Positions 38,361-57,910 of a stretch of 64,000 bases of DNA are shown piece by piece. The stretch is from an uncultured Planctomycetia bacterium. Lineage in GTDB: Bacteria; Omnitrophota; Gorgyraeia; VGKH01; JBHPFN01. The position numbers and the translations under genes are program-made. Numbering within the stretch: position 1 is the first letter of the stretch; the number at the start of each line of letters is the position of its first letter. The stretch is from NCBI GenBank assembly GCA_964406665.1, contig CAYOSQ010000001.1:135412-199411 (forward strand), in the 5' to 3' direction. Below the pieces are notes generated by a model. The model saw only the letters and a list, made by a program, of their open reading frames with translations, made no database searches and had not been told where the DNA came from.

Positions 38361-38388
38361 TTGAAATCCAGAAAAAATATAGTATACT
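38361..38388 (+). promoter_or_regulatory. Sigma70-like promoter TTGAAA-N16-TATACT driving the second riboswitch and giant gene
   Basis: CTATTGAAATCCAGAAAAAATATAGTATACTTTCATTGG. The -10 ends about 35 nt upstream of the aptamer. Confidence 0.4.
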
Positions 38389-38424: not shown

Positions 38425-38535
38425 TCCGCAGTTTGCGGAGAGGCAAACCATTTGTAAGAGTGGGACGCAAAGCCACGGGTCTCACAATTAATAATTAATT
38501 GTGTTTATTTGAGGCGGCCGGGTTGCCGAAAGGTA
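38425..38535 (+). promoter_or_regulatory. c-di-GMP-I (GEMM) riboswitch in the 5' leader of the 2900-aa giant protein gene
   Basis: RNA reads ...CUCCGCAGUUUGCGGAGAGGCAAACCAUUUGUAAGAGUGGGACGCAAAGCCACGGGUCUCAC...GAGGCGGCCGGGUUGCCGAAAGG. Its 5' half matches the V. cholerae Vc2 aptamer GGCAAACCAUUCGAAAGAGUGGGACGCAAAGCC at 30 of 33 positions, and the 3' half conserves GGCCGGGUUGCCGA. The putative translation start is about 110 nt downstream. Confidence 0.8.
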
Positions 38536-38646: not shown

Positions 38647-41600
38647 GTGGTTTCTATAAAAAAGTGGGGAAAATTGCGGAACAGATGTATGAGTGTGTTT
38701 ATTGCACTCATTTTTTTATTCAATTCACTTACCCCTGCATATGCCTGGAGGCCAGGTAATCGTGGTGAACAAAGTGCGCTTGAATCTTTCGCGGCCGGAA
38801 GTCTTTCCGGAGGAATATCAGCCCTTACCATAGCTATGAATCCTATTGCTGGTGCACTAAGCAGCATAGCTTCAAATGTAGCCAGTACGGTTGTATATTA
38901 CAATGATTATGACAGCCAGAGCAAGCCTTGGTTTGATCTAAAGCTTTTTATTTTCTGGGGTCCTAAGATAAAAACATTTACCAAGGCGGAAGCAATAGGT
39001 ATGATTGCCGGTATTGTAGTTGGTGCTGCAGCAGGGTTTGTTGATGGAGCCATAACTGGAAATTCTGAAGAAATAGCAGCAGATGCTGCAGCTGATACTG
39101 GTTCTACGGCAGTTGTAGGCACAACCATTGGTTCTGTGGCAACAGCTGCCAGTCAAAGCTTTTTTAATAGCATGCTCAACGTTTTAACCAATATCGGTAA
39201 CTGGGTATGGAAGAATATGATTGTTGCTTCTTATAAGAACGCCAAAGAGATTTTATTAAGCCCAATAAAGACTATCATCAAAATTGTAAAGAACTTCAGT
39301 AAGATCATGCGAAGGTCCTGGGATTTATCTTTGTCTCTAGTGAAATCATTGGCTAAAACTCCAGTTGTTATCGCTAAAAATATTAGTAAAATCGCTAGGT
39401 CTATCTATAAAACTGCTTACAAGACAGCAGAGGTATCTTTGCGTTTAGCAAAGGCGTTTGTCTGGAATATACCTACAGGAATGCTCAAAAATGCATATTC
39501 TATGCTTAAGGCAACTTTTAACACTCTTACATCGGGATCATTCTGGAGCAGGACGTTTAATACTGTAGGCAGTAAGGCAGGAGCTTTGTTTAGAACACTC
39601 AGAGGCGCAGCTTCTTCTGTAGCAAAAAACATCGAACAGCTCTTTACTCAACCACTCAGTATTACCTTAAAGAATATAGGAAGGTGGCTTAAAGAGTTAC
39701 CTGTTAATTCAATTAATAGGATAAAAACGCTGGCTAAAAAAATTGGACAGAGAATAAAAAATGTTTCTCAAGCCACCAGATTTACAAATCCTTATTATCA
39801 ATATGGTGCCTTAGGGATAAAAGGGCTTCCGGCGTTTTTTGTCCAGCTTGCAGCAGACATAACTTCTGCAATGTACAGAGCTGCTTTTCAAGATGCAACT
39901 AAGGAAATTCTTGAGAAAAAACTTGGTCTGGATGAAAGCATTGCAGAGATCGCCGCAACAGAACTGATTAATAAATTTGCCGCTAAAACAATCAATCATA
40001 ATATTCTTAAAGCATTCGGCTCTGCTTTTGGCTGGGGCATAACCGCATACGGTGGTTTCATAACCGGCGAGATGCAAGAGCGTCTAAAATCAATCGAAGA
40101 GCATGGAAACAACGGAATAGAAGTGCAGGGTATAGTCGTCTCAGAAGATTCTTCTAGTCCAGATACATCAACCCAAGCCTATAACATAAAACTCAAACAG
40201 CTTGTTGGCGCAGGTGCTTTATTAAAAGATGGCACCTGGGTAAGACTTAGTGATGTTGAAGATGCCTCAGAGATAGTAGGCATAGCTGTAGCAACCGATC
40301 GAGGTGTTATCTTAATTGAACCTAATGTAAATATCATCAGCGCAGTTCAGGGATACAAGCAGGCTTTTATACAGGTAGCCAGATTATATATGAGTACCAT
40401 ATCTATGCCTGCTTCACTGAATCAACCAAGTCAAGATGGTGCTTTATCTATGTTGGTTAAGATAGGTGTACTAAAGCTCTTAAGTTACGGTAGTGGCCAT
40501 AGGGGATCATTGGGTAAGATCTGGAAGAAAAAGATAGCAGAGTTAATAGGTAAGCTTGCATCAGAATCTGCAGACAGTCCTGTGCCATCAGAGGAGCAAC
40601 TTGCAGCTTCAGATGAAAGTGAAAAAACCGAAGAGTCTCGGGAAGAAGCTGTAGAGGTTGCTAGCGCTGAATCCGGGGCATCAGTCCAAGATCAAGAAAG
40701 CTCCTCTGAAGAATCATCATCAGAAGAATCTGCGTCAACTGGCAGGAGAGAGCTTGTGTTAGAAAGCATTTCTGATTCATTTGATTCAAGTGGTAGATAT
40801 AATCCTCAAGCACATCTTTTGCCTTTTGGTGACCATCCTTATGGCGGCGATGGAGGAGGTTCCGATGAGTCTGACGAATCCGGAGAAGAAGATGATTCTG
40901 TGGTTTCAAGCTTTAGCTTCGAAGGAGAAACATTTACATTTGATGATCTAAAAAAAGTAGGAAAAATTTATAGAAGTGGTAGAAAAACAGGGATTTTTAT
41001 TTCTAATGCTATTAGAAATGGTGGAGGCTTACTTTCAGGCGGTGAAGATGAAGAAAGCATTGAGAGCGACGGCGTTATTTATACCAAGGTTGAAAATAGA
41101 GAAGTTATGATTATAGATTTAGAAACAGGAGAGATTAAGCACTTGACTGGTTCTGTAGGAGTCGTTCTTGTTACCCTTAGCGATGGATCTTCCTATTTTG
41201 CATTAGTGGATTTCGTGCAGTTGAAAAAAGATATTCAGGAGAGAAATAATTTTACTGACAGGGGAACTGAAATTTTAGCTTTTCTTCCACAGCCACTAGA
41301 AGAAATAAAGCCCCTACCCCCAAAGGAAGAAGAACAAGAAGAGCAGCCACAACTTCCCGAGCCAGTACATAAGAGAGAAGTTACTGTGGGAGGATCAGCT
41401 GTAACGGCTGCTTCAGAAGAGAGTTTTGATGAATCTGATGAATGGGGAGAGGTTACGCTGAGGCCTGAACCACAAACTCCTGAAGAAGAGCAGGAAGCAG
41501 AAGATAGAAAGGGCGGAGAGCGATTTAGTGTTGATTTAGCAGATGTCCCCGGAGCAGCGCTAGATGTTGGAGAGGCAGTTGTAAAAGTGCCTTTTGGGGT

Positions 41601-44600
41601 AGTAAAAGGAGTTGGCGGTCTTGCTGGATCTTTGCTTGGTCTTAAGAAAAAAACTCCAGCAGAATTAGCACGTGAGGCTGCAGAAGATGAAATTAAAATA
41701 GGGGAGCAGATTTTAGAGGAATTTAATGATTCAGATTCTGAAATTACTATTTCAGTAGATAATGAAGGAACTTCAGGAAGGTGTGGTGGTGCTTGTAGGC
41801 TTGAGGTTGATGATCCTTATGAAAGACCTTATCCGGAATATGAACATACTGGAAGATGTTTAAAAAGAGCCCTAGGAAGAGACCCTCAAAGAGCTAACCA
41901 GCTTAAAGCAATGATTAAACAGGTTGTTGCTTTAGGCAATGAGCTTATCGGTGATCCTAAGTTTCGTATTAAACATGTTAAGTTTACTGATAAATTTCCT
42001 TCCCATGCCAATTATTATACTAATACAATTTACCTTAATGTTGATGATTTTCTTTTGGGTTCACACAAAATAAAATACGATGAAGAAGGTTGTGCATCTG
42101 GGTTATGTTCTGAAGAAAGTGCTGGGGAACTTACACATCATGAAGCTTCCCATTTTATTGTTGATAGCAATGTTGATTTACAGCTTGATGAAGTTTATGG
42201 AAAACTTCTTGTTATGATGCAGGGTATTCCGGGATTTGCCCTTATGCCAGGTTCTCGACACACAGCACATCATTATTCAAAGACTAATCAAGAAGAATTT
42301 GCTGCAACGGGATTGGAACCGATTGTTAATTCTGGCAAAGGCAGTGCTTTTGCTGATTCAGTCCTAGCTTGGAAGCGTCGCGGTGATCCTAAGGCAGATG
42401 TTGCAGGTAATTTATATGTAAAATTTTCCCAGGATATTGCCGGACTTGAAGCTGATGAACGAGTGACTGCTCTTTATCCTCCGGGCAGTTTTGAATATAA
42501 AACTCCTGATAATTTAGATCATTATGTGCGCGAGGTGCTTTTAGATAAAGGTTTAGCTGAGCTTGTTAGAGAAAATATTTATTATGGATTTCATGCGGCG
42601 ATGCTTCATGCCCCGGATGCATTAATGGCTTCTTTGGAAAAAGTTATAAACGATCCGTCTTTAACAGCAAGTGATGTTCATACAATATTGGTTGGTTTAA
42701 ATGCTATAGATAAAAACTATAATAGTGAAAACTCTGTTGGTTTAAATTTATCGCGCATGTATCCTCATATGTTGCGCTTGATTGCTGATATGCAAAATGC
42801 AGTTAATCAGGGATATCCTAAGGAATCAGTTGGCAAAGTTGCTCCTTTAAGAAATGCTTCAGGAGAAGAGTTAGGCAGGATCGAATTTTCTGATATGGAT
42901 ATGATTAAGGGAAGCCATTTCTTCCAGTGGATGATACAGAATATTCCTAATATGGAAAACGGAATAAATCTGGATATCGCATTAAGCTTGTTGAACTCTC
43001 TCGATCCCGAGGGCGGCAATTCACGCGAGCAGTTGCGCAGCGCTTTAGCAGGGATCGAAATACCTGCTTTTGCTACAAGATTCAATTTGTCTCAATTGAG
43101 CTCTAGCGATCTTCAGCAGATGGACCCTGTTGAATTTATTGCAGGTTTAATCCGCGCCCAGCAATCTATGGATGCATTATCAGCTAATGAAGATTTTGCA
43201 GCAGAATTAGGTGGTAAAAGAATAGTTCTTAAAACTGGAGAGGCAAGAGATCTATTGCATTCTTCTAACGATGCATCTGAGCCGATTTCTATCGGAATTG
43301 ATCTGGCCAAAGATCAAAACCAGCTAGTAGCTGAGGCAATAGCAGGTGCAGGTTTAATCCTTGCGCCGAATCTACTTTTTTCCGATGAATTTAAACAGGT
43401 TCTCTCAGAGAATTCATTTACAGATATTTCTATATTGTTTAATCAAGATGGTAGTTTGGTTCAGCGCGGTGATTCTCAGGAGCTATTTCGAGTTTTAATA
43501 CCTGCATATGTATTGCATGGTGAAGATTTTGTTAATTACATTGAAAGTTATAAGGGTAAAAACCCAGATGCTTATAATACATTGTTGAGAGCCTTCGTTT
43601 TAATTCGTGAGCAAGTTTTTAAAGGGCACACATTTTTGGAAAATGGGGTAGACCCTTTTGCAGGAACCAAGTTAGGAGATATACCTGCAGTAACAGAGTT
43701 TAATTTGCAGAATTGGTTAAATGGTATTTTAAGACAAGAAGGCTCGGGATCATCTTCTTCAGATTCAACAAATATTAAAACTGGCTCACTTAATTTAGAG
43801 AGTAGTCATCAGAGTCGAGAACTTGTATTAGCAAGTGCTATGGATTCATTCAGCATGCAGGATAGATACAATCCTCAGGCACATCTGTTGCCCATGGAGC
43901 CACATCCAGTATCAGCCTCGGGAGAAGAATCTCAAGATCCTGTTGGGTCTATTACTGCAGGAGAATTTGCTCAATTTGGTCATATCTTGCGAAATAAGAT
44001 TTTACCAGACCTACAGTTAAGAGAAGAGTTCTTGCAAGAAGTAGTTAGTGCTCTTGAAACCGGAAATATGCGAATGCTTTCACTAGTGTTTAATACGACT
44101 GCTAACTTCTCTGATGTCTCAGAAATAGTTCATAGGCCAATGATTGAACATATTGCTTCGATGTCATCTTCTCAAGTAGAGAGGCTAGAATTTACTGATC
44201 AGATTATTCAAGGCTTACAGCAGAATAATAGGTTCAGCGCAAAACTAAAACAAGTTATCAGGGATCCGCGATTCGCTAAATCTGCAGATAAGCTTTTAGG
44301 TGTATTGTTTAAGTTTGATCCTGAAACATCCGGTATGATCGCCGCGGAGTTAGGAAATCATTATATCTGGAATTTACTGGATACTAAAGAGCGGCAACAG
44401 CAGCGCGATAGTGTTGATCGTTTTCTTAAAGATTATGGCTGGGAGATAGGCATGTGGGGATATGATCAAGATTTTTTATGGGAACCGAGTTTGACAACTG
44501 GTTCTCTTGACGGCCATAGTAGAAGATGGCTTAGAGTACCAATCAAAAGATCTTTTAATTTCAAAGAAGGAGGTTGGAGTGAAGAAAGTAGTCATGGCGT

Positions 44601-47349
44601 TACAGGAACAACTTGGTCAATTGGTTATCGTAAAGAAGGTTTAAGATTACCAAAAGATAGCCATGGCGAGATCCCTGAAGGATACCACTACTACGAGGTA
44701 GATCCAGATCCAGTTATTAACCACGAATTTTTCACACTTAACTATGCAAAAGGGGTAGCAAGCTTTGGTGTTGGACTTGGAAAACTTAGTCATATTTTCC
44801 GCGGCGGTAGGTACGATCCAGAAATAGGAGAAATTCGAGTTAACAAAACAGTAGGTTTGTTAAGTCTTGGTATTGGCTTCGGAGGTCCAGTTACTTATAA
44901 AGGTACCTATTTGGGACATTTTGGGTTTGAAGCTTATGTTGATAAAAAATTTGGATCTACGCATTCTAGTGCAGGAACAGATGTGGGGGTTGCCCTTGAA
45001 TACGGTTTACCATTAAGTCGGATGATCCCGAGCATCCGTTCTTCAAAACCCAAAACACCTCTTTGGGGACCAGGAACAATGCCAACACAGCCATCCAGTT
45101 CTAGCTCTACTGCTGAAGAGAAAAAGCCAAAAGAAACATCTTTGAATATTTCACCAGAGTTACAAAAACCTGCTGAACAACATGCTTCAACAGGAGGTTC
45201 TGGAATACAAATGGCTTCAGCTTCTCGAGAGCTTGTTTTAGAAGGTATCCCTGATTCTTTCGATTTAAGCGGCAGCTACAATCCTCAAACACATCTTTTG
45301 CCTTTAGAGCCGCATGGAAGAGCATCCGGGGGTGGATTAGATAGCAGGGCTAGAGCTGTAATGGAAAAAAGACAGAGAAGCGTGCAAACAAGAAGGGCAT
45401 ATGAAAAAAAGAGGGCTCAAATAGTGGGCGTAGAAGATACGCCGGATCTTTCTTTTGTAGATCGCAGTAATATATTTTTAGCGAAGATTTATGATAAGAC
45501 AGGTTTGGGCAATGGGAAAGCTAGAGAGATTAGAAATGATGCATATAATAAAGCAGTAGAAATTGGAGATGCTGAATCAGCTGCAGGAATCGCAGAAGAG
45601 CTTGGCGACCAGCTTTCTGGAGAAGATCTTTTTTCTAGAGCCGATATAAGATATGCGCAGGCAGATTCAGTTTTAACCAACCAGGCATCAGTGGACAGCA
45701 TATCCCTTGAAAGAGTTCATGTTAAAGCAGTGCAGATGCATGAGGGTGCTGGTGATGAAGCTCTGAAAGTAGGAGAAGCTGCGCTCGAAGCATTTGATTC
45801 AGCAATAGAAAATAAAGAAGGCCTCCCTGGTGGAAATGCATCATATCATATTAAGGCAGAAGAACATTATGTAAACGCACAAGAATGGATAGAATCAAGT
45901 AGCTTTTTTGATCCAACGGTAATTGCGAGGTTTAGAGAAAAGCAGTCTCAATCAGGGGAAGGTGCAGCCCGCATCCATATGGCAAAGACGTTATTCGAGC
46001 ATAATGAACCGATTGAAGCCCTTAACCATCTTTCTAGGATAACAATAAACGAAGAAAATAGAGACTGGGTGCAACAGGAATTGGATGAGGTTGATGTTCA
46101 TTTAGAAAGTGGAGATATGTTAAGAAAAAATTATCTTTGGAGATCTCGCAAGCTATTTGATTTTGTAATCGGAGGATTAAAAAGCAACAGCCCGTATGTT
46201 GATGTATTATCTAGTTCTTCAGCACCTACAATAGATGAAGATAATAGGCTACGTTTTAACTATTCAGAAAATGACAGCAAGGATCAATGGATCGGTAAAA
46301 CAGCTGTGATTTGGGGAGATGATATAATTGATGGTGGGAATAATTTAATTTCGGCATTTAGAAGAGATGGATTTAATAATTTATTTTATTTTTATGAAAC
46401 ACCTAATCGAAATGAATATTTTTATTCACCTAAAAATCGGTTCCAACAATTGAGACGTCAAAAAGGCATCTTGGCAGATGCTGCCTTAATTCCGTCAACA
46501 ATGCAAGATATTGTTGCTAGAATTTATGCAGATAGAAGTCTTGCTGATAGAGTGGCTTTTGGTCAACATGGAGACAGGAAAGTAGATACCTATTTTCCTT
46601 TTCTTAAATATGGATTCTCTCAGCTTAATCCAGGTAATTACGCTAGATATTATGCTCCTATTAGGGCATTGGTTAGAGGAGAAGCGGAAATTTATAATTG
46701 CTTTTTGGCTTCTGACGGCGTTCCAGTCGCTGATACGCATTATTACAATCGTAGAAATAGTAGGCCTTATACTTCTATGGTGTTAGAGGGTAGATTTGAA
46801 AATAAGAGAAATACATGGAGTAGGCAGTTGAGAAATTGGTTTGCAAAACGTACTCTGCCAGGGCATGTTTTGCGTCTTCCCCCTATGCTTACGAGTCTTG
46901 AAGATAGCACATTAAGAGTTATGGATTACAGAAATTTTTTAAATAGTGAGATTGAACAGATTGAAAGAATTCGAGGAAGCACTCCTCATTATAGAGATTT
47001 GACCTGGGTTACTGGAAATCAATATCCAAAGCTGCGAGCAAGAGACACAGAAGCTAATTTTAGGAATTTTTTACGTAAGCAACCACAGAATTTAGAGCTT
47101 TTCTATAGAATCCTTGAGATATCTGATAGCAGATATTTGACTAAAGAGGTTCAAAGAATTCAAACCCAAGTAGATAGAATAGGAGATGAAGATGATTTAA
47201 TGCAGATGATGAATTATCCAACTGGTCAGAAATTTACTGAGCTTATAAAAGGTGTTCAAAAAGCGCTTGGTGTAGAAGCTGATGGAGTTTTTGTCCCTGG
47301 TGGAGAAACTGATGCTGCCCTTAAGAAGGTTGAAGCGCAGATAAGATAG
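38647..47349 (+). CDS. Giant secreted or envelope protein (2900 aa) with signal peptide, Gly/Ala-rich and Lys-rich amphipathic N-terminal region, acidic Ser/Glu linkers, three internal conserved repeats, an HExxH motif and a C-terminal peptidoglycan-binding (PG_binding_1-like) domain
   Basis: One uninterrupted 8.7 kb ORF with a GTG start 8 nt after an AGGGGG RBS. N-terminus MVSIKKWGKLRNRCMSVFIALIFLFNSLTPAYA is a signal peptide. Repeats RELVLxxxxDSFxxxxxYNPQxHLLPxxxHP occur at about aa 700, 1725 and 2195. LTHHEASHF at about aa 1165 fits HExxH. The C-terminal FTELIKGVQKALGVEADGVFVPGGETDAALKKVEAQ matches the PGBD-1 consensus. Confidence 0.8.
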   Translation: MVSIKKWGKLRNRCMSVFIALIFLFNSLTPAYAWRPGNRGEQSALESFAAGSLSGGISALTIAMNPIAGALSSIASNVASTVVYYNDYDSQSKPWFDLKLFIFWGPKIKTFTKAEAIGMIAGIVVGAAAGFVDGAITGNSEEIAADAAADTGSTAVVGTTIGSVATAASQSFFNSMLNVLTNIGNWVWKNMIVASYKNAKEILLSPIKTIIKIVKNFSKIMRRSWDLSLSLVKSLAKTPVVIAKNISKIARSIYKTAYKTAEVSLRLAKAFVWNIPTGMLKNAYSMLKATFNTLTSGSFWSRTFNTVGSKAGALFRTLRGAASSVAKNIEQLFTQPLSITLKNIGRWLKELPVNSINRIKTLAKKIGQRIKNVSQATRFTNPYYQYGALGIKGLPAFFVQLAADITSAMYRAAFQDATKEILEKKLGLDESIAEIAATELINKFAAKTINHNILKAFGSAFGWGITAYGGFITGEMQERLKSIEEHGNNGIEVQGIVVSEDSSSPDTSTQAYNIKLKQLVGAGALLKDGTWVRLSDVEDASEIVGIAVATDRGVILIEPNVNIISAVQGYKQAFIQVARLYMSTISMPASLNQPSQDGALSMLVKIGVLKLLSYGSGHRGSLGKIWKKKIAELIGKLASESADSPVPSEEQLAASDESEKTEESREEAVEVASAESGASVQDQESSSEESSSEESASTGRRELVLESISDSFDSSGRYNPQAHLLPFGDHPYGGDGGGSDESDESGEEDDSVVSSFSFEGETFTFDDLKKVGKIYRSGRKTGIFISNAIRNGGGLLSGGEDEESIESDGVIYTKVENREVMIIDLETGEIKHLTGSVGVVLVTLSDGSSYFALVDFVQLKKDIQERNNFTDRGTEILAFLPQPLEEIKPLPPKEEEQEEQPQLPEPVHKREVTVGGSAVTAASEESFDESDEWGEVTLRPEPQTPEEEQEAEDRKGGERFSVDLADVPGAALDVGEAVVKVPFGVVKGVGGLAGSLLGLKKKTPAELAREAAEDEIKIGEQILEEFNDSDSEITISVDNEGTSGRCGGACRLEVDDPYERPYPEYEHTGRCLKRALGRDPQRANQLKAMIKQVVALGNELIGDPKFRIKHVKFTDKFPSHANYYTNTIYLNVDDFLLGSHKIKYDEEGCASGLCSEESAGELTHHEASHFIVDSNVDLQLDEVYGKLLVMMQGIPGFALMPGSRHTAHHYSKTNQEEFAATGLEPIVNSGKGSAFADSVLAWKRRGDPKADVAGNLYVKFSQDIAGLEADERVTALYPPGSFEYKTPDNLDHYVREVLLDKGLAELVRENIYYGFHAAMLHAPDALMASLEKVINDPSLTASDVHTILVGLNAIDKNYNSENSVGLNLSRMYPHMLRLIADMQNAVNQGYPKESVGKVAPLRNASGEELGRIEFSDMDMIKGSHFFQWMIQNIPNMENGINLDIALSLLNSLDPEGGNSREQLRSALAGIEIPAFATRFNLSQLSSSDLQQMDPVEFIAGLIRAQQSMDALSANEDFAAELGGKRIVLKTGEARDLLHSSNDASEPISIGIDLAKDQNQLVAEAIAGAGLILAPNLLFSDEFKQVLSENSFTDISILFNQDGSLVQRGDSQELFRVLIPAYVLHGEDFVNYIESYKGKNPDAYNTLLRAFVLIREQVFKGHTFLENGVDPFAGTKLGDIPAVTEFNLQNWLNGILRQEGSGSSSSDSTNIKTGSLNLESSHQSRELVLASAMDSFSMQDRYNPQAHLLPMEPHPVSASGEESQDPVGSITAGEFAQFGHILRNKILPDLQLREEFLQEVVSALETGNMRMLSLVFNTTANFSDVSEIVHRPMIEHIASMSSSQVERLEFTDQIIQGLQQNNRFSAKLKQVIRDPRFAKSADKLLGVLFKFDPETSGMIAAELGNHYIWNLLDTKERQQQRDSVDRFLKDYGWEIGMWGYDQDFLWEPSLTTGSLDGHSRRWLRVPIKRSFNFKEGGWSEESSHGVTGTTWSIGYRKEGLRLPKDSHGEIPEGYHYYEVDPDPVINHEFFTLNYAKGVASFGVGLGKLSHIFRGGRYDPEIGEIRVNKTVGLLSLGIGFGGPVTYKGTYLGHFGFEAYVDKKFGSTHSSAGTDVGVALEYGLPLSRMIPSIRSSKPKTPLWGPGTMPTQPSSSSSTAEEKKPKETSLNISPELQKPAEQHASTGGSGIQMASASRELVLEGIPDSFDLSGSYNPQTHLLPLEPHGRASGGGLDSRARAVMEKRQRSVQTRRAYEKKRAQIVGVEDTPDLSFVDRSNIFLAKIYDKTGLGNGKAREIRNDAYNKAVEIGDAESAAGIAEELGDQLSGEDLFSRADIRYAQADSVLTNQASVDSISLERVHVKAVQMHEGAGDEALKVGEAALEAFDSAIENKEGLPGGNASYHIKAEEHYVNAQEWIESSSFFDPTVIARFREKQSQSGEGAARIHMAKTLFEHNEPIEALNHLSRITINEENRDWVQQELDEVDVHLESGDMLRKNYLWRSRKLFDFVIGGLKSNSPYVDVLSSSSAPTIDEDNRLRFNYSENDSKDQWIGKTAVIWGDDIIDGGNNLISAFRRDGFNNLFYFYETPNRNEYFYSPKNRFQQLRRQKGILADAALIPSTMQDIVARIYADRSLADRVAFGQHGDRKVDTYFPFLKYGFSQLNPGNYARYYAPIRALVRGEAEIYNCFLASDGVPVADTHYYNRRNSRPYTSMVLEGRFENKRNTWSRQLRNWFAKRTLPGHVLRLPPMLTSLEDSTLRVMDYRNFLNSEIEQIERIRGSTPHYRDLTWVTGNQYPKLRARDTEANFRNFLRKQPQNLELFYRILEISDSRYLTKEVQRIQTQVDRIGDEDDLMQMMNYPTGQKFTELIKGVQKALGVEADGVFVPGGETDAALKKVEAQIR
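40741..40860 (+). repeat. Intragenic protein repeat 1 (GRRELVLESISDSFDSSGRYNPQAHLLPFGDHPYGG)
   Basis: One of three about 35-aa conserved motifs inside the giant ORF, each flanked by acidic/Ser-rich low-complexity linkers. Confidence 0.6.
43807..43920 (+). repeat. Intragenic protein repeat 2 (SRELVLASAMDSFSMQDRYNPQAHLLPMEPHP)
   Basis: Same motif as repeat 1. Confidence 0.6.
45221..45320 (+). repeat. Intragenic protein repeat 3 (SRELVLEGIPDSFDLSGSYNPQTHLLPLEPHG)
   Basis: Same motif as repeat 1. Confidence 0.6.
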
Positions 47350-47580: not shown

Positions 47581-48540
47581 ATGTTCAAAGACAAAAAAGT
47601 ATTAGTTGCTGGTGGCGCTGGTTTCGTAGGAGTGAATCTGATTAAAAGACTTCTAGATTTAGGTGCAGATATAACCGCCACGCTGCATAAAAAACCCGCA
47701 GTTTTGCAAGATGACCGCATTTCATATATTTACTGTGATTTAATAAAACCAGAAGATTGTGTTAGGGTAGTTAAAGATATTCAGTTTGTATTTATGTGCG
47801 CTGCTAATACGTCTGGTGCAGCAGTTATGGCTAAGACACCCTTGGTACATGTTACCCCCAATGTTATTATGAATACACTTTTTTTAGATGCTGCTTATCA
47901 GGCAGGGGTAGAGAAGTTTCTGTTTATTAGCAGCAATACTGTTTATCCTTCAACAGATCATCCTGTAAAAGAAGAAGAGATGTTAAGCGGAGATTTATTT
48001 GAGAAATATTTCTGCGTTGGTTGGATGAAGCGTTTTACTGAAATCCTCTGTCAGATGTATACCCAAAAGATTAAAAACCCAATGAAAACAGTAGTTGTGC
48101 GCCCGGCAAATATATTTGGCCTAGGAGATGATTTTCAATGGGAAACATCTCACGTGATTCCGGCATTAATCCGTAAAGCTATCGAGCGACATGACCCTGT
48201 TGAAGTTTGGGGAGATGGGAGCGATATCAAAGATCTAATCTTTATCGAGGATTTTATTGAGGGAATGTTGCTTGCTATGGAGAAGATTGATACGTTCGAC
48301 CCTGTTAACATAGGCACAGGAAAATCTATCAGTATAAAAGAAGCGCTTCAGATAATATTAAAAGTTGCTGGCTATAAAGATGCAAAAATTAAATTTGATA
48401 CTTCTAAGCCAACAATGATACCGAAAAGATTAATTGATGTTTCTAAAGCAAAAAAACAATTGGGGTTTGAGGCAAAAACCTCGTTTGAAGAAGGAATAAA
48501 GAAAACTATTCAGTGGTATAAGGAAAATCCAGCAAAATAG
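47581..48540 (+). CDS. NAD-dependent epimerase/dehydratase (GDP-L-fucose synthase-like)
   Basis: N-terminal Rossmann VLVAGGAGFVGVNL and the SDR-extended fold. 319 aa. Confidence 0.75.
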   Translation: MFKDKKVLVAGGAGFVGVNLIKRLLDLGADITATLHKKPAVLQDDRISYIYCDLIKPEDCVRVVKDIQFVFMCAANTSGAAVMAKTPLVHVTPNVIMNTLFLDAAYQAGVEKFLFISSNTVYPSTDHPVKEEEMLSGDLFEKYFCVGWMKRFTEILCQMYTQKIKNPMKTVVVRPANIFGLGDDFQWETSHVIPALIRKAIERHDPVEVWGDGSDIKDLIFIEDFIEGMLLAMEKIDTFDPVNIGTGKSISIKEALQIILKVAGYKDAKIKFDTSKPTMIPKRLIDVSKAKKQLGFEAKTSFEEGIKKTIQWYKENPAK

Positions 48541-48567
48541 ATTTAACTTATCAGTAGGAGTAAAAAT

Positions 48568-49578
48568 ATGATTATTAGCAGAACACCATTTCGCATTTCG
48601 TTTTTTGGCGGAGGAACAGATTATCCCGGTTGGTATAAAGATCATCCCGGAGCAGTGCTTGCAGCAAGTATTGATAAATACTGTTATATAAGCTGTCGAA
48701 TGCTGCCGCCATTTTTCAAATACAAATATCGTATTGTTTACACCAACAGAGAAGAAGTTAATAAGATATCTGAAATCGATCATCCTTCTGTTCGAGAAAC
48801 ACTTAAGTTCCTCAATGAAAAGAGAGGATTACATATTCATCATGATGCAGATTTACCTGCACGTACAGGGCTTGGTTCAAGTTCAACCTTTACTGTCGGT
48901 CTTCTGCATACGCTGTATGCTTTGCGAGGTAAAATTGTTTCCAAAAAACAACTGGCTTTAGAAGCAATTAATATAGAACAGAATTTGATTAAAGAACACG
49001 TTGGTTCGCAAGATCAGACAATCGCTGCTTTTGGCGGGTTTAACAAGATTGAGTTTCGACCGGAAAATATTGAAGTTCATCCTATAACAATAAATCCTGA
49101 TAAGATAGATAATTTTTCCCGTCACATTATGATGTATTTTACAGGTTTTTCCAGGATTGCCTCAGAAGTTGCGCGTCATCAGATTGAAGCTATCCCGCGC
49201 AGAAAAAAAGAGTTGCATGAAATGTATCAATTCGTGGGAGAGGCAGTTAAAATACTTAACAACAAAAGACCTTCGTTTATAGATTTTGGTAAGCTTCTAC
49301 ATGAAAATTGGAAGATTAAAAAAAGTTTAACCGGAAGAATATCTACATCATATATTGACAACATATATGAAACTGCGCGCAGAGCCGGTGCCACAGGAGG
49401 AAAGTTATTAGGTGCAGGTGGAGGTGGGTTTATGATTTTCTTTGTAAAGCCTTCTAGGCAGCCGAAAGTAAGAGAGGCATTGAAAAAATTACTCTATGTG
49501 CCGGTTAAGTTTGAATCTTTGGGAAGCCAGATAGTTTACTTCCGCCCCTACTACAATTTTGACCAGAATGGAAAATGA
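48568..49578 (+). CDS. GHMP-family sugar kinase (D-glycero-D-manno-heptose 7-phosphate kinase HddA-like)
   Basis: N-terminus RTPFRISFFGGGTDYPGW matches the HddA-type RxPxRISFxGGGTD. GHMP motif LPARTGLGSSSTF. Confidence 0.7.
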   Translation: MIISRTPFRISFFGGGTDYPGWYKDHPGAVLAASIDKYCYISCRMLPPFFKYKYRIVYTNREEVNKISEIDHPSVRETLKFLNEKRGLHIHHDADLPARTGLGSSSTFTVGLLHTLYALRGKIVSKKQLALEAINIEQNLIKEHVGSQDQTIAAFGGFNKIEFRPENIEVHPITINPDKIDNFSRHIMMYFTGFSRIASEVARHQIEAIPRRKKELHEMYQFVGEAVKILNNKRPSFIDFGKLLHENWKIKKSLTGRISTSYIDNIYETARRAGATGGKLLGAGGGGFMIFFVKPSRQPKVREALKKLLYVPVKFESLGSQIVYFRPYYNFDQNGK

Positions 49579-50288
49579 GTAATAAGCTTGCAGAAATAGA
49601 CAGCATAATTTTATGTGGTGGTTTAGGTAAACGATTAGAAAGTATTGCTGGTAGTAAGCCAAAAGCAATGCTTGAGATAAATCAAAAACCCTTCCTGGAT
49701 ATTCTTATTGAGTTTTTGATTAAATCCGGATGCAAAAGAACAATTTTGTGTATCGGACATCTAGGTGAAACAATTAAATCATATTATGGTCAGAGACAAT
49801 TGTCGATTGAAATTATTTTTTCAGAAGAAAAAGAACCATTGGGTACTGGTGGAGCAATAAAAAATGCAAAAGAGCTTATTAAAAGCGATACATTTCTTGC
49901 AATGAACGGAGATAGTTTTTGTAATGTAGGGCTGGATAAGTTTTTTGATTTTCACATTGAGAAAAATGCTTTATTGTCTTTGGTTTTGGCAAAATCAGAT
50001 AGTGTGAGCGATTATGCTAAAGTTGAGTTAGAAGATAGCGGAAGAATTACAAGTTTTCAGGAGAAGCCAGATATTTCCGGTGTAGCTTTAATTAATGCTG
50101 GAATTTATCTTATGAAAAGAGAAATTTTTTCTCATATGCCTGAAAACAATTCTTTTTCACTTGAGAAAGATGTATTTCCACAAGTACTTAATTTAGAATG
50201 CCATGGTTTCTTAAGTAGTTCACCTTGTATAGATATTGGCACACCCCAGAGATATGAAAATGCAAAGAAGGTTTTAACAAAAAGATAA
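49575..50288 (+). CDS. Sugar-1-phosphate nucleotidyltransferase (heptose-1-phosphate guanylyltransferase HddC-like)
   Basis: ILCGGLGKRL is the nucleotidyltransferase signature. 237 aa. Overlaps the kinase stop (ATGA). Confidence 0.75.
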   Translation: MSNKLAEIDSIILCGGLGKRLESIAGSKPKAMLEINQKPFLDILIEFLIKSGCKRTILCIGHLGETIKSYYGQRQLSIEIIFSEEKEPLGTGGAIKNAKELIKSDTFLAMNGDSFCNVGLDKFFDFHIEKNALLSLVLAKSDSVSDYAKVELEDSGRITSFQEKPDISGVALINAGIYLMKREIFSHMPENNSFSLEKDVFPQVLNLECHGFLSSSPCIDIGTPQRYENAKKVLTKR

Positions 50289-50290
50289 TT

Positions 50291-50992
50291 ATGACAGTTA
50301 CACTTATAATGCTTTGTTTAAATGAGTTGGAGTGCCTAAAGGTAATACTGCCACGCATAAACAAAGAATGGGTAGATGAAATTATTATTGTTGACGGACA
50401 TTCTACCGACGGAAGTATCGAATATGCTAAAGAACTAGGCTTTGATATTTTATTGCAGAAGGATAAAGGGGTTATTGCAGGTTATCAGGAAGGATTAGAG
50501 GCTGCCAAAGGAGATGTGATTATTACATTTACACCTGATGGAAATATGATACCGGAAAAAATTCCTGAACTGGCAGATAAGATGAAGCAAGGTTATGACA
50601 TGGTCACAGTTTCACGCTATGCTCAAGGAGCAAAGAGTTACGATGATACTTTAATATCTGGTTTTGGAAACTGGATGTTTACAAAATTAGTGAATATATT
50701 GTTTCGTGCTAAATATACTGATGTTTTAGGTTTTTACCGTGCGTTTAAAAAGGATATTTTTAAAAGACTGGATCTTGAAGGTGCTATAAGGATTAGCGTT
50801 GACACACAGCTATGTATTAGATGTGCTAAGAGAGGATTAAAGGTTGCAGATATACCAGGAGATGAACCCATAAGAATTAGTGGCGGAAGTTATAGGAGTA
50901 TTATTAAAAATGGCATTTTAGAATTGTTTACAATAATTGAGGAATTTTTTCTTATATTTGTTAGGCCTTTTAAGAAAGAAAAATTGTCATGA
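50291..50992 (+). CDS. Family 2 glycosyltransferase (polyprenyl-phosphate sugar synthase-like)
   Basis: IIVDGHSTDGS and the FTPDGNM DxD region. 233 aa. Confidence 0.7.
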   Translation: MTVTLIMLCLNELECLKVILPRINKEWVDEIIIVDGHSTDGSIEYAKELGFDILLQKDKGVIAGYQEGLEAAKGDVIITFTPDGNMIPEKIPELADKMKQGYDMVTVSRYAQGAKSYDDTLISGFGNWMFTKLVNILFRAKYTDVLGFYRAFKKDIFKRLDLEGAIRISVDTQLCIRCAKRGLKVADIPGDEPIRISGGSYRSIIKNGILELFTIIEEFFLIFVRPFKKEKLS

Positions 50993-51981
50993 AGATATTG
51001 ATTACCGGAATAACTGGTTTTGTAGGAAGTCATTTAGCGGAACATATACTTTCTCTAAAGCAGCGCCATAAGATTTTTGGTTTATGTCGCTGGAGAAGCC
51101 CGCGGAATAATTTATCAGAGGTTTTCGATAAGATCTCTTTGCTTGAAGCGGATCTCGGTGATGTTAGCTCTTTATCCAGACTGCTTAAAGAAAACAAGCC
51201 TGATGTTATTTTTCATCTGGCAGCTCAGAGCTACGTGCTTACAAGTTTTAATTCCCCCATTCAGACTTTGTGGACAAATGTTATTGGAACCGCTAATCTT
51301 CTTGAGGCAATAAGATTGACGGCAATTGATCCGGTTGTACATGTTTGTTCTTCCTCGGAAGTCTACGGACAAGCTCAGAAAGAAGATGTACCCATTAAAG
51401 AAACATGTTCGCTTCGTCCTGCCTCGCCGTATGCAGTAAGCAAGGTTGGCGAAGATATGGTAGCCTATCAATATTGGATTTCTCATAAAATCAAAACTAT
51501 ACGTACAAGAATGTTTACTCATACAGGTCCTAGAAGAGGGGATGTATTTGCTTTATCATTTTTTGCCAAGCAAGTTGCAGCTGCAGAATTAAATTTATGT
51601 AAACCAATTATCCGTGTAGGAAACTTAAAATCAGTACGCACTGTCTGTGATGTTCGCGATGCTGTCAGGGCATACTGGATTATGGTTAATAAATGTAAGC
51701 CCGGAGAAGTTTATAATATTGGCGGAAACCGTACGTTGACCGTGGGAGAGGCGCTAGATATTCTATTGTCTTTTTCACAAAAAAAGTGTGAAGTTAAGGT
51801 GGATCCAGAGTTATTGCGTCCTTCAGATATAACGTTGCAGATTCCCTGCATTGATAAATTCAAAGATGAAACTGGCTGGGAACCAGAAATCCCGTTAGAG
51901 AAAACTTTAGAAGATATGCTTAATTACTGGCGCGAGGAACTTAAGAAAAATCCCTGGCAAAGCAAAACCGTAGTTCGATAA
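50989..51981 (+). CDS. NAD-dependent nucleotide-sugar 4,6-dehydratase/epimerase (GDP-mannose- or GDP-heptose-dehydratase-like)
   Basis: MKILITGITGFVGSHL Rossmann motif and YAVSK (YxxxK) catalytic motif. 330 aa. Confidence 0.75.
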   Translation: MKILITGITGFVGSHLAEHILSLKQRHKIFGLCRWRSPRNNLSEVFDKISLLEADLGDVSSLSRLLKENKPDVIFHLAAQSYVLTSFNSPIQTLWTNVIGTANLLEAIRLTAIDPVVHVCSSSEVYGQAQKEDVPIKETCSLRPASPYAVSKVGEDMVAYQYWISHKIKTIRTRMFTHTGPRRGDVFALSFFAKQVAAAELNLCKPIIRVGNLKSVRTVCDVRDAVRAYWIMVNKCKPGEVYNIGGNRTLTVGEALDILLSFSQKKCEVKVDPELLRPSDITLQIPCIDKFKDETGWEPEIPLEKTLEDMLNYWREELKKNPWQSKTVVR

Positions 51982-51992
51982 ATTATAAATAT

Positions 51993-52946
51993 ATGAACAA
52001 GCTAATTTTAGATCTTTACAAAAAACTATACCTAATAAGAAAAAGTGAAGAAAAGATCATTAAACATTATTGTGAAGATGAGATGAAAACTCCTATGCAT
52101 ATGTCTATGGGAGGTGAGGCTATTGCAACAGGCGTTTGTCATGCGTTAAGAGAAAAAGATCAGGTTTATGGAACTTATAGGTCGCACGGAATATATTTAT
52201 CTAAGACAGAAGATGTAGATAGTTTTTTTGCTGAGATGTACGGGAAAGAGACGTCTTTATTAAAGGGAAGGGGCGGATCGATGCATTTGTTTGCTCCTGA
52301 TTGTGGATTTATGGGAACCTCTGCGATAGTAGGTAGTGCGATTCCTGTTGCTGTGGGAGCTGCTTTTGCAAATAAGGTAGCAGGTAATGATAAGGTTGTT
52401 GTTGTGTTCTTCGGTGATGGCGCTGTTGATGAAGGTGGTTTTTGGGAAAGTTTAAATATCGCCTGTCTTATGAAGTTGCCAATTATATTTATTTGTGAGG
52501 ATAATGGATTGGCAGTTCATACTACTACTTCAACAAGGCAAGGTTTTAAATCCATTACCGAAGTTGTTTCAAAATTTAATTGCAATGTGTTTAAAGATAA
52601 AACTACTGATGCGCAGATTATTCATAAATTAACCCGCGATGCAATTAAGGCACTTAAGTCAACGCAGATGCCTTGTTTTATTCATTTGAAATACTACAGG
52701 TATTTAGAACATGTGGGGGTTAACGAAGATTTTGATGCTGGTTATCGTTCGAAAACTGAATTTAGAAAATGGCAGAAAGATGATCCGGTTAAGTTGCAGA
52801 GGAATAAGTTGATGGAATCTGGTTGCAGTGAAGCTAAAATCAAAAAAGTAGAATTTGATATAAGCGATCGAATCAATAATAGTGTGGTCAAAGCCAAAAA
52901 AGCCAGCTTTGTCCAAAAGTCTGAACTTTACAGGGAAGTTTGTTAA
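51993..52946 (+). CDS. Thiamine-diphosphate-dependent dehydrogenase E1 component, alpha subunit
   Basis: ThDP-binding GDGAVDEGGFWESLN (GDG...N) motif. 317 aa. Confidence 0.75.
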   Translation: MNKLILDLYKKLYLIRKSEEKIIKHYCEDEMKTPMHMSMGGEAIATGVCHALREKDQVYGTYRSHGIYLSKTEDVDSFFAEMYGKETSLLKGRGGSMHLFAPDCGFMGTSAIVGSAIPVAVGAAFANKVAGNDKVVVVFFGDGAVDEGGFWESLNIACLMKLPIIFICEDNGLAVHTTTSTRQGFKSITEVVSKFNCNVFKDKTTDAQIIHKLTRDAIKALKSTQMPCFIHLKYYRYLEHVGVNEDFDAGYRSKTEFRKWQKDDPVKLQRNKLMESGCSEAKIKKVEFDISDRINNSVVKAKKASFVQKSELYREVC

Positions 52947-53986: not shown

Positions 53987-53988
53987 TA

Positions 53989-54708
53989 ATGTGTTGGTTG
54001 GATAAAACATCAATTGAAACAATTTTGCAATTAAGGGATAAATTTCAGATTTCAACTTTTGTTGAAACAGGGGCTTTTAAAGGAGTAAATGCTAAATTTC
54101 ATGCTCAGAATTTTAAAGAAGTGTTAACCTGTGATATTTCAGATGAATATATTGAGGCAGCTGAAAAAAGAACAGAAGATTGCAAAAATGTAAAAATATC
54201 TAAACAATCTAGCCCTGATTTTCTACGTTCATTCATTGAAAGATATAACAAGGAGAATAGAAAAGATATTGTATTTATTTATCTCGACGCTCATTTTTAT
54301 GACCCCGTACTTCCACCTGAAGAGAAATGGGTTGTTGTAAATGAATTAAAAGCTCTTATTGATTTTAAGAATTGTATAATCTGTGTTCATGATTTTGATT
54401 GTGAAGGATTAGGTCATTGTTGTTATAATGGTCAGCCATTAGGATGGCCGTTAATTAAAGAGCATATAATAAAAGTAAATCCCAGCTTTTACTTTTATAC
54501 AAATACAAGAGAGTTTTGTAACATTTATAATGAAAAAACAATCTCAGATGTTCTCGGAATTACGCTAGATGAGGAAACTCTAAGTAATATCCGATATGCA
54601 CATAGTAATGATGAGAAAACTTATCGCGGAATTTTATATTGTACACCGCAGGAGTTAGATTTAGAGAAATTTAAACTAAAAAAACTCGAGGTTAAAAATG
54701 GAACTTAA
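53989..54708 (+). CDS. Hypothetical protein, possibly class I SAM-dependent methyltransferase (TylF/FkbM-like)
   Basis: Weak motif-I-like VETGAFKGVNA only. It lies inside a sugar-modification cluster. Confidence 0.3.
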   Translation: MCWLDKTSIETILQLRDKFQISTFVETGAFKGVNAKFHAQNFKEVLTCDISDEYIEAAEKRTEDCKNVKISKQSSPDFLRSFIERYNKENRKDIVFIYLDAHFYDPVLPPEEKWVVVNELKALIDFKNCIICVHDFDCEGLGHCCYNGQPLGWPLIKEHIIKVNPSFYFYTNTREFCNIYNEKTISDVLGITLDEETLSNIRYAHSNDEKTYRGILYCTPQELDLEKFKLKKLEVKNGT

Positions 54709-55477: not shown

Positions 55478-55482
55478 AAGAT

Positions 55483-56481: not shown

Positions 56482-56499
56482 AATCTCATTTATAAATTC

Positions 56500-57888: not shown

Positions 57889-57910
57889 AATAACTTATAT
57901 TTTTTTGTTA

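What the first reader, a model, noticed from the sequence alone, without database searches (positions are those of the whole stretch)
40741..45320. Three conserved RELVL..DSF..YNPQxHLLP..HP motifs partition the giant protein, possible processing or sorting sites
The same about 32-aa motif recurs at aa about 700, 1725 and 2195, each time just after a low-complexity acidic or Ser-rich linker and before a new domain block. The rest of the protein is non-repetitive. This pattern resembles polyprotein cleavage junctions or repeated recognition sites (autoproteolysis, sortase or rhomboid-like processing, or module docking), not structural tandem repeats.
Basis: seen in the sequence. Interest (0 to 1): 0.6.

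Follow-up and report, generated by a model that had tools for sequence, protein, structure and literature searches.

The report
Orphan junction motif in giant exoprotein
A 31-residue sequence found in no other protein searched recurs three times in the flexible linkers of one 2,900-residue exported bacterial protein (probably Omnitrophota) and has been kept by selection; it most likely marks where a partner, perhaps a protease, recognises the boundaries of the protein's variable modules, but this is untested.

Summary
RELVL-x5-DSF-x5-YNPQxHLLP-x3-H occurs at ORF residues 701, 1724 and 2194. Seventeen of 31 positions are invariant, there are no indels, and nothing else in the protein repeats. 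The copies are old: dS is 0.9-1.9 and dN/dS 0.17-0.26, so the peptide sequence is under selection.

Each copy lies in a low-complexity linker, 10-25 residues before an unrelated block. A motif profile searched against 1.84 billion representative proteins matched only this protein. DNA pattern scans of three contig collections also found nothing. It is therefore not a general sorting signal, and it matches no known fold or repeat.

Sortase, rhomboid, double-glycine and NPTH signatures were tested and not met.

The protein has a Sec signal peptide and a conserved N-terminal module of about 620 residues. Only two other giant proteins share that module, one of them in an Omnitrophota genome. All three genes follow a c-di-GMP-I riboswitch.

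My best reading is a repeated recognition element at module boundaries, probably read by a processing protease (confidence 0.35). A non-cleaved docking epitope is nearly as likely. Structure prediction failed. A natural variant changes the invariant Asn of copy 3 to Lys.

The parts
38361..38388 (+). Promoter-like site (TTGAAA-16-TATACT) upstream of the riboswitch. This is a weak, consensus-only call.
   Evidence: the number of sites in the region is not above the shuffle expectation
38432..38530 (+). c-di-GMP-I riboswitch aptamer (RF01051) in the 5' leader of the giant gene
   Evidence: 66.1 bits against a gathering score of 35, E 1e-10, full model. The same family precedes both homologous genes, at L002 1167-1259 and L003 9740-9836. 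The leader folds with z = -4.4.
38647..47349 (+). Giant ORF, 2900 aa from GTG. A GGGGG Shine-Dalgarno-like run lies just upstream. Database copies start at GTG (P0006) or at M15 (P0001, P0007).
38647..38745 (+). Sec-type signal peptide: a basic n-region (KKWGKLRNR), a hydrophobic core, then AYA|W. The AYAWRPGN stretch is conserved in all three homologues.
   Evidence: read from the sequence; no predictor was run
38746..40557 (+). Conserved N-terminal module with Gly/Ala-rich hydrophobic segments and Lys-rich amphipathic helices. This is the only part shared with P0002 and with the Omnitrophota MAG gene.
   Evidence: weak match to phrog_167 tape-measure protein, E 3.9e-5
40558..40746 (+). Linker 1, rich in acidic residues and Ser
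40747..40839 (+). Motif copy 1: RELVLESISDSFDSSGRYNPQAHLLPFGDHP
40840..43737 (+). Variable block A: acidic tail, a small domain, a Pro/Glu linker, then a roughly 650-aa region holding the protein's only HExxH. No detectable homologue.
42139..42153 (+). HEASH, the only HExxH in the protein. It is followed by DEVYG (42187-42201) and QEEFAAT (42289-42309). This is a zincin-like lead seen by eye only.
   Evidence: Not confirmed: no Pfam or PDB hit. The AF2 model was poor and the fold search meaningless.
43738..43815 (+). Linker 2, rich in Ser and Gly
43816..43908 (+). Motif copy 2: RELVLASAMDSFSMQDRYNPQAHLLPMEPHP
43909..45045 (+). Variable block B, no detectable homologue
45046..45225 (+). Linker 3, rich in Pro, Ser and Thr
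45226..45318 (+). Motif copy 3: RELVLEGIPDSFDLSGSYNPQTHLLPLEPHG
45280..45282 (+). Codon of the invariant Asn of copy 3 (AAT). It reads AAA (Lys) in a second metagenome's otherwise near-identical contig.
45319..47346 (+). Variable block C, no detectable homologue

Best explanation
The motif is a lineage-specific linear recognition element of about 31 residues. It has three conserved blocks at fixed spacing: RELVL, DSF and YNPQxHLLP..H.

Shown:
- It lies in low-complexity linkers that look disordered, just upstream of each of the three unrelated C-terminal blocks.
- The host protein has a Sec-type signal peptide and sits behind a c-di-GMP riboswitch. Its N-terminal module is conserved and its C-terminal part is variable.
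- The three copies are old and are held by purifying selection on the peptide sequence.
- The motif occurs in no other protein that could be searched.

Inferred:
- One partner reads the motif three times.
- That partner is most plausibly a processing protease, so that one precursor made in response to c-di-GMP is cut into the N-terminal module and three separate modules.
- Candidate proteases are the HExxH region in block A or an enzyme encoded elsewhere.
- In role, the motif would resemble the pre-toxin junction motifs of polymorphic toxins or the inter-effector cleavage sites of MARTX toxins.
For: - Real and non-random.
- Selection on the peptide: dS 0.94-1.92 and dN/dS 0.17-0.26 between copies. 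The 17 invariant residues show synonymous divergence pS 0.45-0.72 and no amino-acid change.
- Position: each copy follows 26-63 residues of low-complexity linker and precedes the next block by about 10-25 residues. The three blocks share no similarity.
- Family architecture: the N-terminal ~620 residues are conserved, while the C-terminal regions after the first linker are unrelated to ours. This is the layout of polymorphic secreted proteins.
- No autonomous structure predicted: copies 2 and 3 were modelled as coil with pLDDT 24-30 (single sequence, so weak).
- One HExxH lies inside block A.
- Literature: proteolytic splitting of giant Omnitrophota proteins has been proposed, but no cleavage points are known (10.1101/2023.11.21.568195). 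The paralogue P0002 is followed by a C39 peptidase gene.
Against: - There is no evidence of cleavage.
- Thirty-one residues with fixed spacing is far more than a protease site normally needs. That fits a docking peptide at least as well.
- One other long linker, the Pro/Glu-rich stretch at about ORF residues 885-960, has no motif.
- The HExxH region matches no peptidase family. A single HExxH is expected by chance in roughly one protein in ten of this size (my estimate).
- The two homologues lack the motif, so it is not a general feature of the family.
- A natural variant has Lys at the invariant Asn of copy 3. Strict necessity of that residue is therefore not established.
Confidence: 0.35

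Rival explanations
1. The motif is a docking epitope that is not cleaved. It folds on binding, for example through a short beta-strand (ELVLE) that extends a partner's sheet, with the DSF and YNPQxHLLP blocks as anchors. Three copies would make the exported protein trivalent for one partner. That partner could be its own N-terminal module, a cell-surface or pilus component, or a prey or host protein. The closest parallel is the set of linear binding epitopes in the disordered translocation domains of colicins and pyocins.
For: - The conserved footprint is long with invariant spacing.
- The motif is embedded in low-complexity linkers.
- It was predicted as coil.
- The protein is exported, and its riboswitch points to a c-di-GMP-controlled surface or attachment role.
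Against: No partner is identified. No other protein in the searchable databases carries the motif, so no shared docking system is visible. The comparison with colicin epitopes is from memory only.
Confidence: 0.3
2. Self-cleavage at the invariant Asn-Pro bond by Asn cyclisation, with nearby His residues assisting. Known Asn-Pro autocleavages are the NPTH site of FlhB/YscU and Asn42-Pro43 of reovirus mu1.
For: N-P is invariant and followed by an invariant His three residues after the Pro, and a second invariant His lies 7 residues further on. Three of the seven NP dipeptides in the protein lie in the motifs.
Against: - The motif is NPQ[AT]H, not NPTH.
- Known self-cleaving sites sit in folded domains of 80 residues or more. 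Here the flanks are low-complexity, and there is no Pfam hit to FlhB-type or any other autoprocessing domain.
- The resemblance was recalled from memory and not tested.
Confidence: 0.1
3. The three copies are one small structural element. They could pack together into a discontinuous mini-domain that ties the chain into loops, or form a metal site through the conserved His, Asp and Glu residues. Alternatively each copy caps the domain that follows it.
For: Spacing is fixed, and polar residues that could bind metal are conserved (E, D, two H). There is a very weak resemblance of DSF..RYNPQ to the Kelch-blade signature (E 1.6, not significant).
Against: The domains that follow are unrelated, so a shared cap is unlikely. 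Low-complexity sequence separates the motif from both neighbours. No repeat or fold family matches. The model gives coil.
Confidence: 0.1
4. A sorting signal for a sortase (YNPQTH resembles the sortase B signal NPQTN), a rhomboid or a similar envelope-sorting enzyme.
For: Copy 3 reads NPQTH, which shares NPQT with the S. aureus IsdC signal NPQTN (from my own knowledge).
Against: - No NP[QK][TS][NGS] or LPXTG pattern is present.
- The copies are internal.
- No hydrophobic segment follows any copy: the highest 19-residue hydropathy in the next 80 residues is 0.25-0.85.
- No other protein carries the motif.
- The organism has Omp85, so it is diderm.
Confidence: 0.03
5. A functionless remnant: a scar of past module duplication or shuffling, or a recent DNA repeat.
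For: The motif lies exactly at module boundaries, as a recombination scar might.
Against: Synonymous sites are near saturation while 17 residues are invariant (dN/dS 0.17-0.26). The longest shared DNA runs are only about 11-14 nt, so the copies are neither recent nor usable for recombination now.
Confidence: 0.04

Closest known systems
Pre-toxin junction motifs of polymorphic toxins (VENN of CdiA, DPxGL of Rhs, the PT-TG and PT-HINT modules)
   Same: A short conserved element lies directly N-terminal of a variable C-terminal cargo domain in a large exported protein whose N-terminal part is conserved. It marks the module boundary and, in those systems, the point of release.
   Different: There is no sequence or profile similarity: no VENN, DPxGL or Pfam PT-* hit. 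Here the element occurs three times in one chain, no immunity gene follows, and DNA identity between copies is too low for recombination.
MARTX toxins: inter-effector linkers cut by the internal cysteine protease domain
   Same: One giant exported precursor carries a membrane-active region and several unrelated cargo domains separated by unstructured linkers. An internal protease separates the cargo.
   Different: MARTX sites are minimal (a Leu in a linker), not a 31-residue motif. No CPD or RTX repeats are present. The internal protease here is only a single HExxH seen by eye.
c-di-GMP-controlled proteolysis of surface proteins: LapA/LapG/LapD in Pseudomonas, and PPEP-1 (Zmp1) cutting repeated VNP|PVP sites in C. 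difficile adhesins whose genes lie behind c-di-GMP riboswitches
   Same: A large surface protein is tied to c-di-GMP signalling and carries a defined, sometimes repeated, linear protease site. The C. difficile case also involves riboswitch control.
   Different: The motifs differ: there is no Pro-Pro bond. An AAAG stretch matching the LapG TAAG-type pattern was seen by eye, but it lies in a hydrophobic segment of the N-terminal module rather than in a retention module of the LapA kind. Our protein uses a Sec signal, not T1SS or sortase anchoring. The comparison rests on my own knowledge, not on a test.
Sortase B sorting signal NPQTN
   Same: It shares the tetrapeptide NPQT with copy 3.
   Different: It fails the defining tripartite architecture. 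Copies 1 and 2 read NPQAH.
FlhB/YscU NPTH autocleavage loop
   Same: An invariant Asn-Pro is followed closely by His.
   Different: There is one extra residue and no surrounding folded FlhB-type domain.
Linear binding epitopes in the disordered translocation domains of colicins and pyocins (TolB box, TonB box, OmpF-binding sites)
   Same: Short conserved islands in Gly/Ser-rich disordered regions of an exported toxin-like protein, sometimes repeated, that dock onto partner proteins.
   Different: Those epitopes are 5-16 residues long and belong to recognised families. No similarity was found here.

Membership tests
Sortase sorting signal (LPXTG; class B NPQTN) | Pentapeptide LPXTG or NP[QK][TS][NGS] | tested here: not met
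   Regex on the whole protein found none. The copies read NPQAH, NPQAH and NPQTH.
Sortase sorting signal (LPXTG; class B NPQTN) | C-terminal position, followed by a hydrophobic segment and a basic tail | tested here: not met
   The copies are internal, at residues 701, 1724 and 2194 of 2900. The highest 19-residue hydropathy in the 80 residues after each copy is 0.50, 0.85 and 0.25.
Rhomboid or other intramembrane-protease substrate | Cleavage site within or next to a transmembrane helix | tested here: not met
   The motif and its flanks are polar, with mean hydropathy -0.4 to -1.5.
Double-glycine leader / C39 peptidase site | LSxxELxxIxGG-type helix ending in GG, GA or GS | tested here: not met
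   No match to L...EL..[ILV].G[GAS]. The Gly runs after copies 1 and 3 are not at conserved positions. No C39 gene was found among the window ORFs scanned, though one follows the paralogue P0002.
FlhB/YscU-type NPTH autocleavage | An NPTH loop inside a Bac_export_2-type folded domain | tested here: not met
   No NPTH and no Pfam hit.
Known repeated fold or tandem structural repeat | Match to a repeat or domain profile, or adjacent copies that build one fold | tested here: not met
   Pfam gave 0 hits on the whole protein, on 10 segments and on the 3 motif peptides. The PDB profile search's best hit was E 1.6. The copies are 1023 and 470 residues apart.
Polymorphic-toxin pre-toxin modules (PT-VENN, PT-TG, PT-HINT, Rhs DPxGL) | Profile or signature match to one of these modules | tested here: not met
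   No Pfam hit and no VENN or DPxGL. The resemblance is in architecture only.
Polyprotein cleavage junction | Peptide bond cleaved at the site in the mature product | not testable with these tools
   This needs proteomics or in-vitro processing.
General sorting or recognition signal of the organism | Presence in several unrelated proteins | tested here: not met
   The motif HMM matched only this protein in 1.84 billion representatives. The three other listed hits are tandem-repeat artefacts. Nothing else matched in the six-frame window, L002 or L003. The DNA pattern gave 0 hits in genome, metagenome and viral contigs.
Zincin metallopeptidase (for block A) | HExxH on an active-site helix plus a third zinc ligand, in a recognisable zincin fold or family profile | tested here: inconclusive
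   One HEASH is present, with DEVYG and QEEFAAT downstream. There is no family or PDB match. The AF2 model had pLDDT 44 and the fold search gave no hit at E<=0.001.
c-di-GMP-I riboswitch (RF01051), for the 5' leader | Score above Rfam's gathering threshold over the full aptamer model, upstream of a gene on the same strand | tested here: met
   66.1 bits against 35, model positions 1-87, 117 nt before the start codon. The same family was found upstream of both homologues.

The most novel reading that the evidence does not exclude
The motif is a self-contained processing cassette. This could be autocatalytic at the invariant Asn-Pro bond, or a dedicated long recognition site for the protein's own HExxH domain. 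Either way, one riboswitch-induced 2,900-residue precursor would become four separate exported proteins. That would be a true bacterial polyprotein with defined junctions, and the first identified cleavage points in the large proteins of Omnitrophota-type bacteria.
Probability: 0.12. Interest if true: 0.75.

Novelty: new variant of a known kind. Interest (0 to 1): 0.42.

Why it matters
Whether the very large proteins of Omnitrophota and similar uncultivated bacteria act as single chains or are cut into pieces is an open question. The main study of them states that no cleavage points are known (10.1101/2023.11.21.568195).

This protein offers a small test case. It has three selection-maintained, identical-format sites exactly at module boundaries, short enough to test with recombinant fragments and with a natural Asn-to-Lys variant as a ready control.

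The context result also stands on its own. All three detectable members of this protein family sit behind c-di-GMP-I riboswitches, which links expression of these exported giants to second-messenger signalling.

The limit on importance is scope. The motif is so far confined to one protein of one population, and every functional statement is inference.

Tried and rejected
- **Whole-protein and domain homology.**
  - The word-indexed search found only the protein itself and one paralogue that shares the N-terminus.
  - The search with block A found nothing and even missed the self-hit, so that tool's negatives are weak.
  - The motif alignment gave no candidates in the same tool.
- **Family libraries.** Pfam, NCBIfam and PHROGs on the whole protein and on 10 segments gave nothing usable.
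- **PDB sequence searches.** All segments, the motif profile and the HExxH core gave nothing significant.
- **Phages and plasmids.** tblastn gave no match.
- **DNA pattern for DSF-x5-YNPQxHLLP.**
  - It gave 0 hits in genome, metagenome and viral contigs.
  - Neither the genome nor the metagenome scan returned the source contig, although the protein is on record from NCBI and on a JGI contig. These negatives are therefore incomplete.
- **N-terminal module scans.** One Omnitrophota locus in genomes; none in metagenome or viral contigs.
- **Structure prediction.** Both single-sequence AlphaFold2 jobs were poor, with pLDDT 35.7 and 44.4. The one fold search gave only noise. No structural conclusion is drawn.
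- **Taxonomy from sample identifiers.** The literature search found no paper.
- **Ideas considered and dropped.** C39 double-glycine site, sortase B signal, rhomboid site, NPTH loop, PilZ-like c-di-GMP binding motif, Kelch or YD repeat, recent DNA repeat or recombination scar.
Full report
**What is there.** The finding lies inside one ORF, 38647..47349 on the + strand, 2900 codons from a GTG start. The sequence RELVL-x5-DSF-x5-YNPQxHLLP-x3-H starts at ORF residues 701, 1724 and 2194, which are nt 40747, 43816 and 45226. It occurs nowhere else in any of the six reading frames of the window.

The three copies align without gaps, and 17 of 31 positions are invariant. Several measures show this is not chance:
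- Pairwise blastp between the segments gives E about 1e-14.
- Each copy scores 77-80 bits against a profile of the three. The next best stretch in the window scores 5 bits.
- The best 31-residue self-match has 22 identities. In 60 shuffles of the protein the mean was 11 and the maximum 13.
- With the motifs masked, the best remaining self-match is 10, so the rest of the protein is indeed non-repetitive.

**The copies are old and constrained.**
- At the DNA level the copies differ at most synonymous sites. Nei-Gojobori dS is 0.94-1.92, and dN/dS is 0.17-0.26 over the 31 codons.
- At the 17 invariant residues the synonymous divergence (pS) is 0.45-0.72 with no amino-acid change.
- The repeat is therefore not a recent duplication, a DNA-level element or a product of gene conversion. 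Selection acts on the peptide.
- The longest shared nucleotide runs are about 11-14 nt, too short to serve as recombination anchors now.

**Where the copies sit.** Each copy follows 26-63 residues of low-complexity linker: acidic and Ser-rich, Ser/Gly-rich, and Pro/Ser/Thr-rich. A further 10-25 polar residues follow before the next block begins. The blocks after the three copies show no similarity to each other.

So the motif is an island of conservation in what look like disordered linkers, and it lies closer to the downstream block. In the one model that covered copies 2 and 3, both came out as coil with pLDDT 24-30. That model was single-sequence and poor overall (mean pLDDT 35.7), so this is only weak evidence.

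**Is it a known or shared element?** No. The evidence is as follows:
- Pfam gave nothing for the whole protein, for ten segments or for the three motif peptides. NCBIfam gave nothing for the ten segments.
- A profile search of PDB sequences gave only insignificant hits to Kelch blades, E 1.6.
- A full HMMER search of the motif profile against 1.84 billion cluster representatives returned only this protein (224 bits, three stretches). Three other listed hits are tandem-repeat artefacts in which weak partial matches add up.
- A degenerate DNA pattern for DSF-x5-YNPQxHLLP had no match in the genome, metagenome or viral collections.

These negatives have limits:
- Only cluster representatives were searched.
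- The contig collections evidently lack the source genome.
- The word-indexed protein search missed even self-hits.

Within those limits the motif is private to this protein. A general sorting or secretion signal of the organism is therefore not supported.

**Named mechanisms tested (unless stated).**
- The protein has no LPXTG, no NP[QK][TS][NGS], no NPTH, no VENN, no DPxGL and no double-glycine leader pattern.
- No hydrophobic segment follows any copy. The maximum 19-residue hydropathy is 0.25-0.85, so sortase-type and rhomboid-type signals fail their defining features.
- YNPQTH resembles the sortase B signal NPQTN, and NPQxH resembles the NPTH autocleavage loop. I recalled both from memory; they are leads that did not survive these tests.

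**The protein and its family.**
- *Export signal.* The N-terminus reads as a Sec signal peptide, with a basic n-region, a hydrophobic core and AYA|W. No predictor was run.
- *N-terminal module.* About 600 residues follow, with Gly/Ala-rich hydrophobic segments and Lys-rich amphipathic helices. This module is the only part with relatives.
- *Relatives found.* One is P0002, a 3073-residue protein from a metagenome that also holds a near-identical copy of this gene; a C39 peptidase gene follows it. The other is a gene cut by a contig end in a MAG named Candidatus Omnitrophota bacterium (VGKH01000034.1).
- *Variable region.* After the first low-complexity linker the C-terminal region of our protein matches neither relative, although the two relatives still match each other there. 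Neither relative carries the motif.
- *Architecture.* A conserved exported N-terminal module with a variable C-terminal part is the layout of polymorphic secreted proteins. Here the variable part is divided into three blocks, each preceded by the motif.
- *Source organism.* It is probably an Omnitrophota-type diderm anaerobe. Omp85 and HypD are in the window. The phylum rests only on that one homologue.

**Regulation (found outside the finding's coordinates).**
- A c-di-GMP-I riboswitch aptamer lies at 38432-38530, 117 nt upstream of the start codon. It scores 66.1 bits against a gathering score of 35.
- The same family lies directly upstream of both homologous genes, at L002 1167-1259 and L003 9740-9836. 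The association is conserved across all three detectable family members.
- A second aptamer at 18573-18496 (-) precedes a run of pilin-like ORFs, two of which contain Hint domains.
- The window also encodes a PAS-GGDEF-HD protein and a PilZ protein.
- The giant protein is therefore an exported product whose synthesis is coupled to c-di-GMP.

**A possible internal protease.**
- Block A holds the protein's only HExxH (HEASH, nt 42139-42153), followed by DEVYG and QEEFAAT. By eye these recall third-ligand motifs of some zincins.
- No peptidase family or solved structure matches.
- The model of this region was poor (pLDDT 44.4) and its fold search returned noise.
- A single HExxH in a protein this long is not rare by chance. 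This remains a lead, not a result.

**A natural variant.** A contig from a second metagenome (L001) differs from the window at 3 of 28,661 nt. The only difference inside the giant gene is T45282A, which turns the invariant Asn of YNPQ in copy 3 into Lys.

Other database copies have Asn. This may be an assembly error, a segregating deleterious allele, or a variant that inactivates one site. It cautions against calling the residue indispensable, and it supplies a ready-made mutant for experiments.

**Mechanism.**
- *Shown.* A private, ancient 31-residue linear motif, kept by selection, lies at the upstream boundary of each variable block. The protein has a Sec-type signal peptide and follows a c-di-GMP riboswitch.
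- *Inferred.* One partner recognises the motif three times.
- *Preferred reading (confidence 0.35).* That partner is a processing protease that separates the modules. The motif's position at module boundaries fits this. So do the family's polymorphic architecture, the published proposal that large Omnitrophota proteins are cleaved, and the C39 gene beside the paralogue.
- *Main rival (0.30).* A non-cleaved docking epitope that makes the protein trivalent for a partner. The length and rigid spacing of the motif fit binding at least as well as cleavage.
- *Minor rivals.* Asn-Pro self-cleavage (0.10) and a small structural or metal-binding element (0.10).
- *Disfavoured by tests.* Sorting signals and a neutral scar.

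**Novelty and score.** The motif has no relative, but conserved junction elements in modular exported proteins are a known kind of feature. I therefore rate it a new variant of a known kind.

Interest is moderate (0.42). The case is clean and testable, touches an open question about giant bacterial proteins, and comes with a conserved riboswitch link. Against that, it is confined to one protein, and its function remains inference.

Noticed in passing
window 38432-38530 (+); L002 1167-1259; L003 9740-9836: A c-di-GMP-I riboswitch aptamer (RF01051) lies upstream of the giant gene and of both of its only detectable homologues. The riboswitch-gene association is conserved across this small family (66.1, 52.9 and 53 bits).
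   Followed up: yes
window 18496-18573 (-) and ORFs 17142-18419, 14815-17115, 13186-14775, 10753-13149 (-): A second c-di-GMP-I aptamer (61.5 bits) precedes four minus-strand ORFs. Two of them start with prepilin-like N-termini (NRKAFTLxE) and contain PT-HINT/intein-type Hint domains, one of them two such domains. The other two are ~770-800-aa proteins with hydrophobic N-termini and no Pfam hit. Pilin-like proteins carrying Hint domains are unusual.
   Followed up: partly
window 45282: The only nucleotide difference inside the 8.7-kb gene between two metagenomes is T->A. It changes the invariant Asn of YNPQ in motif copy 3 to Lys. Only 3 differences occur in 28.7 kb overall.
   Followed up: partly
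window 42139-42309: The protein's single HExxH (HEASH) is followed by DEVYG and QEEFAAT, which looks zincin-like by eye. No profile, PDB hit or structure model supports it.
   Followed up: partly
L002 10575-11519: The paralogous giant gene P0002 is immediately followed by a 314-aa Peptidase_C39 protein. No C39 gene was seen among the window ORFs scanned.
   Followed up: no
window 38968-39765 (N-terminal module residues 94-359 of P0001): Weak match to phrog_167, a phage tail tape-measure protein (E 3.9e-5, 22.5 bits). It may reflect shared Gly/Ala-rich hydrophobic and amphipathic composition rather than homology. No relative was found in viral contigs.
   Followed up: partly
window 6141-8972 (+): A 943-aa ORF combines a Peptidase_M1 domain (residues 289-503) with a C-terminal Omp85 beta-barrel domain (628-941). 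This is an unusual fusion of an aminopeptidase-type domain to an outer-membrane barrel.
   Followed up: no
window 4199-6151 and 30100-33531 (+): Further c-di-GMP signalling genes lie in the same window: a 650-aa PilZ-domain protein and a 1143-aa PAS-GGDEF-HD(-GYP-like) protein.
   Followed up: no
P0002 residues ~590-760: The paralogue has three near-tandem copies of a ~45-residue unit (RDExTGEL...LPVAQA..LS) inside its N-terminal region. It has no dispersed junction motif.
   Followed up: no
window 47581-59824: Downstream of the giant gene lies a long run of sugar-nucleotide and glycosyltransferase genes: a GDP-fucose-synthase-like epimerase, heptose kinase and guanylyltransferase homologues, a GT2 and a PMT_2-type transferase. 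These could glycosylate the envelope, or conceivably the Ser/Thr-rich linkers.
   Followed up: no
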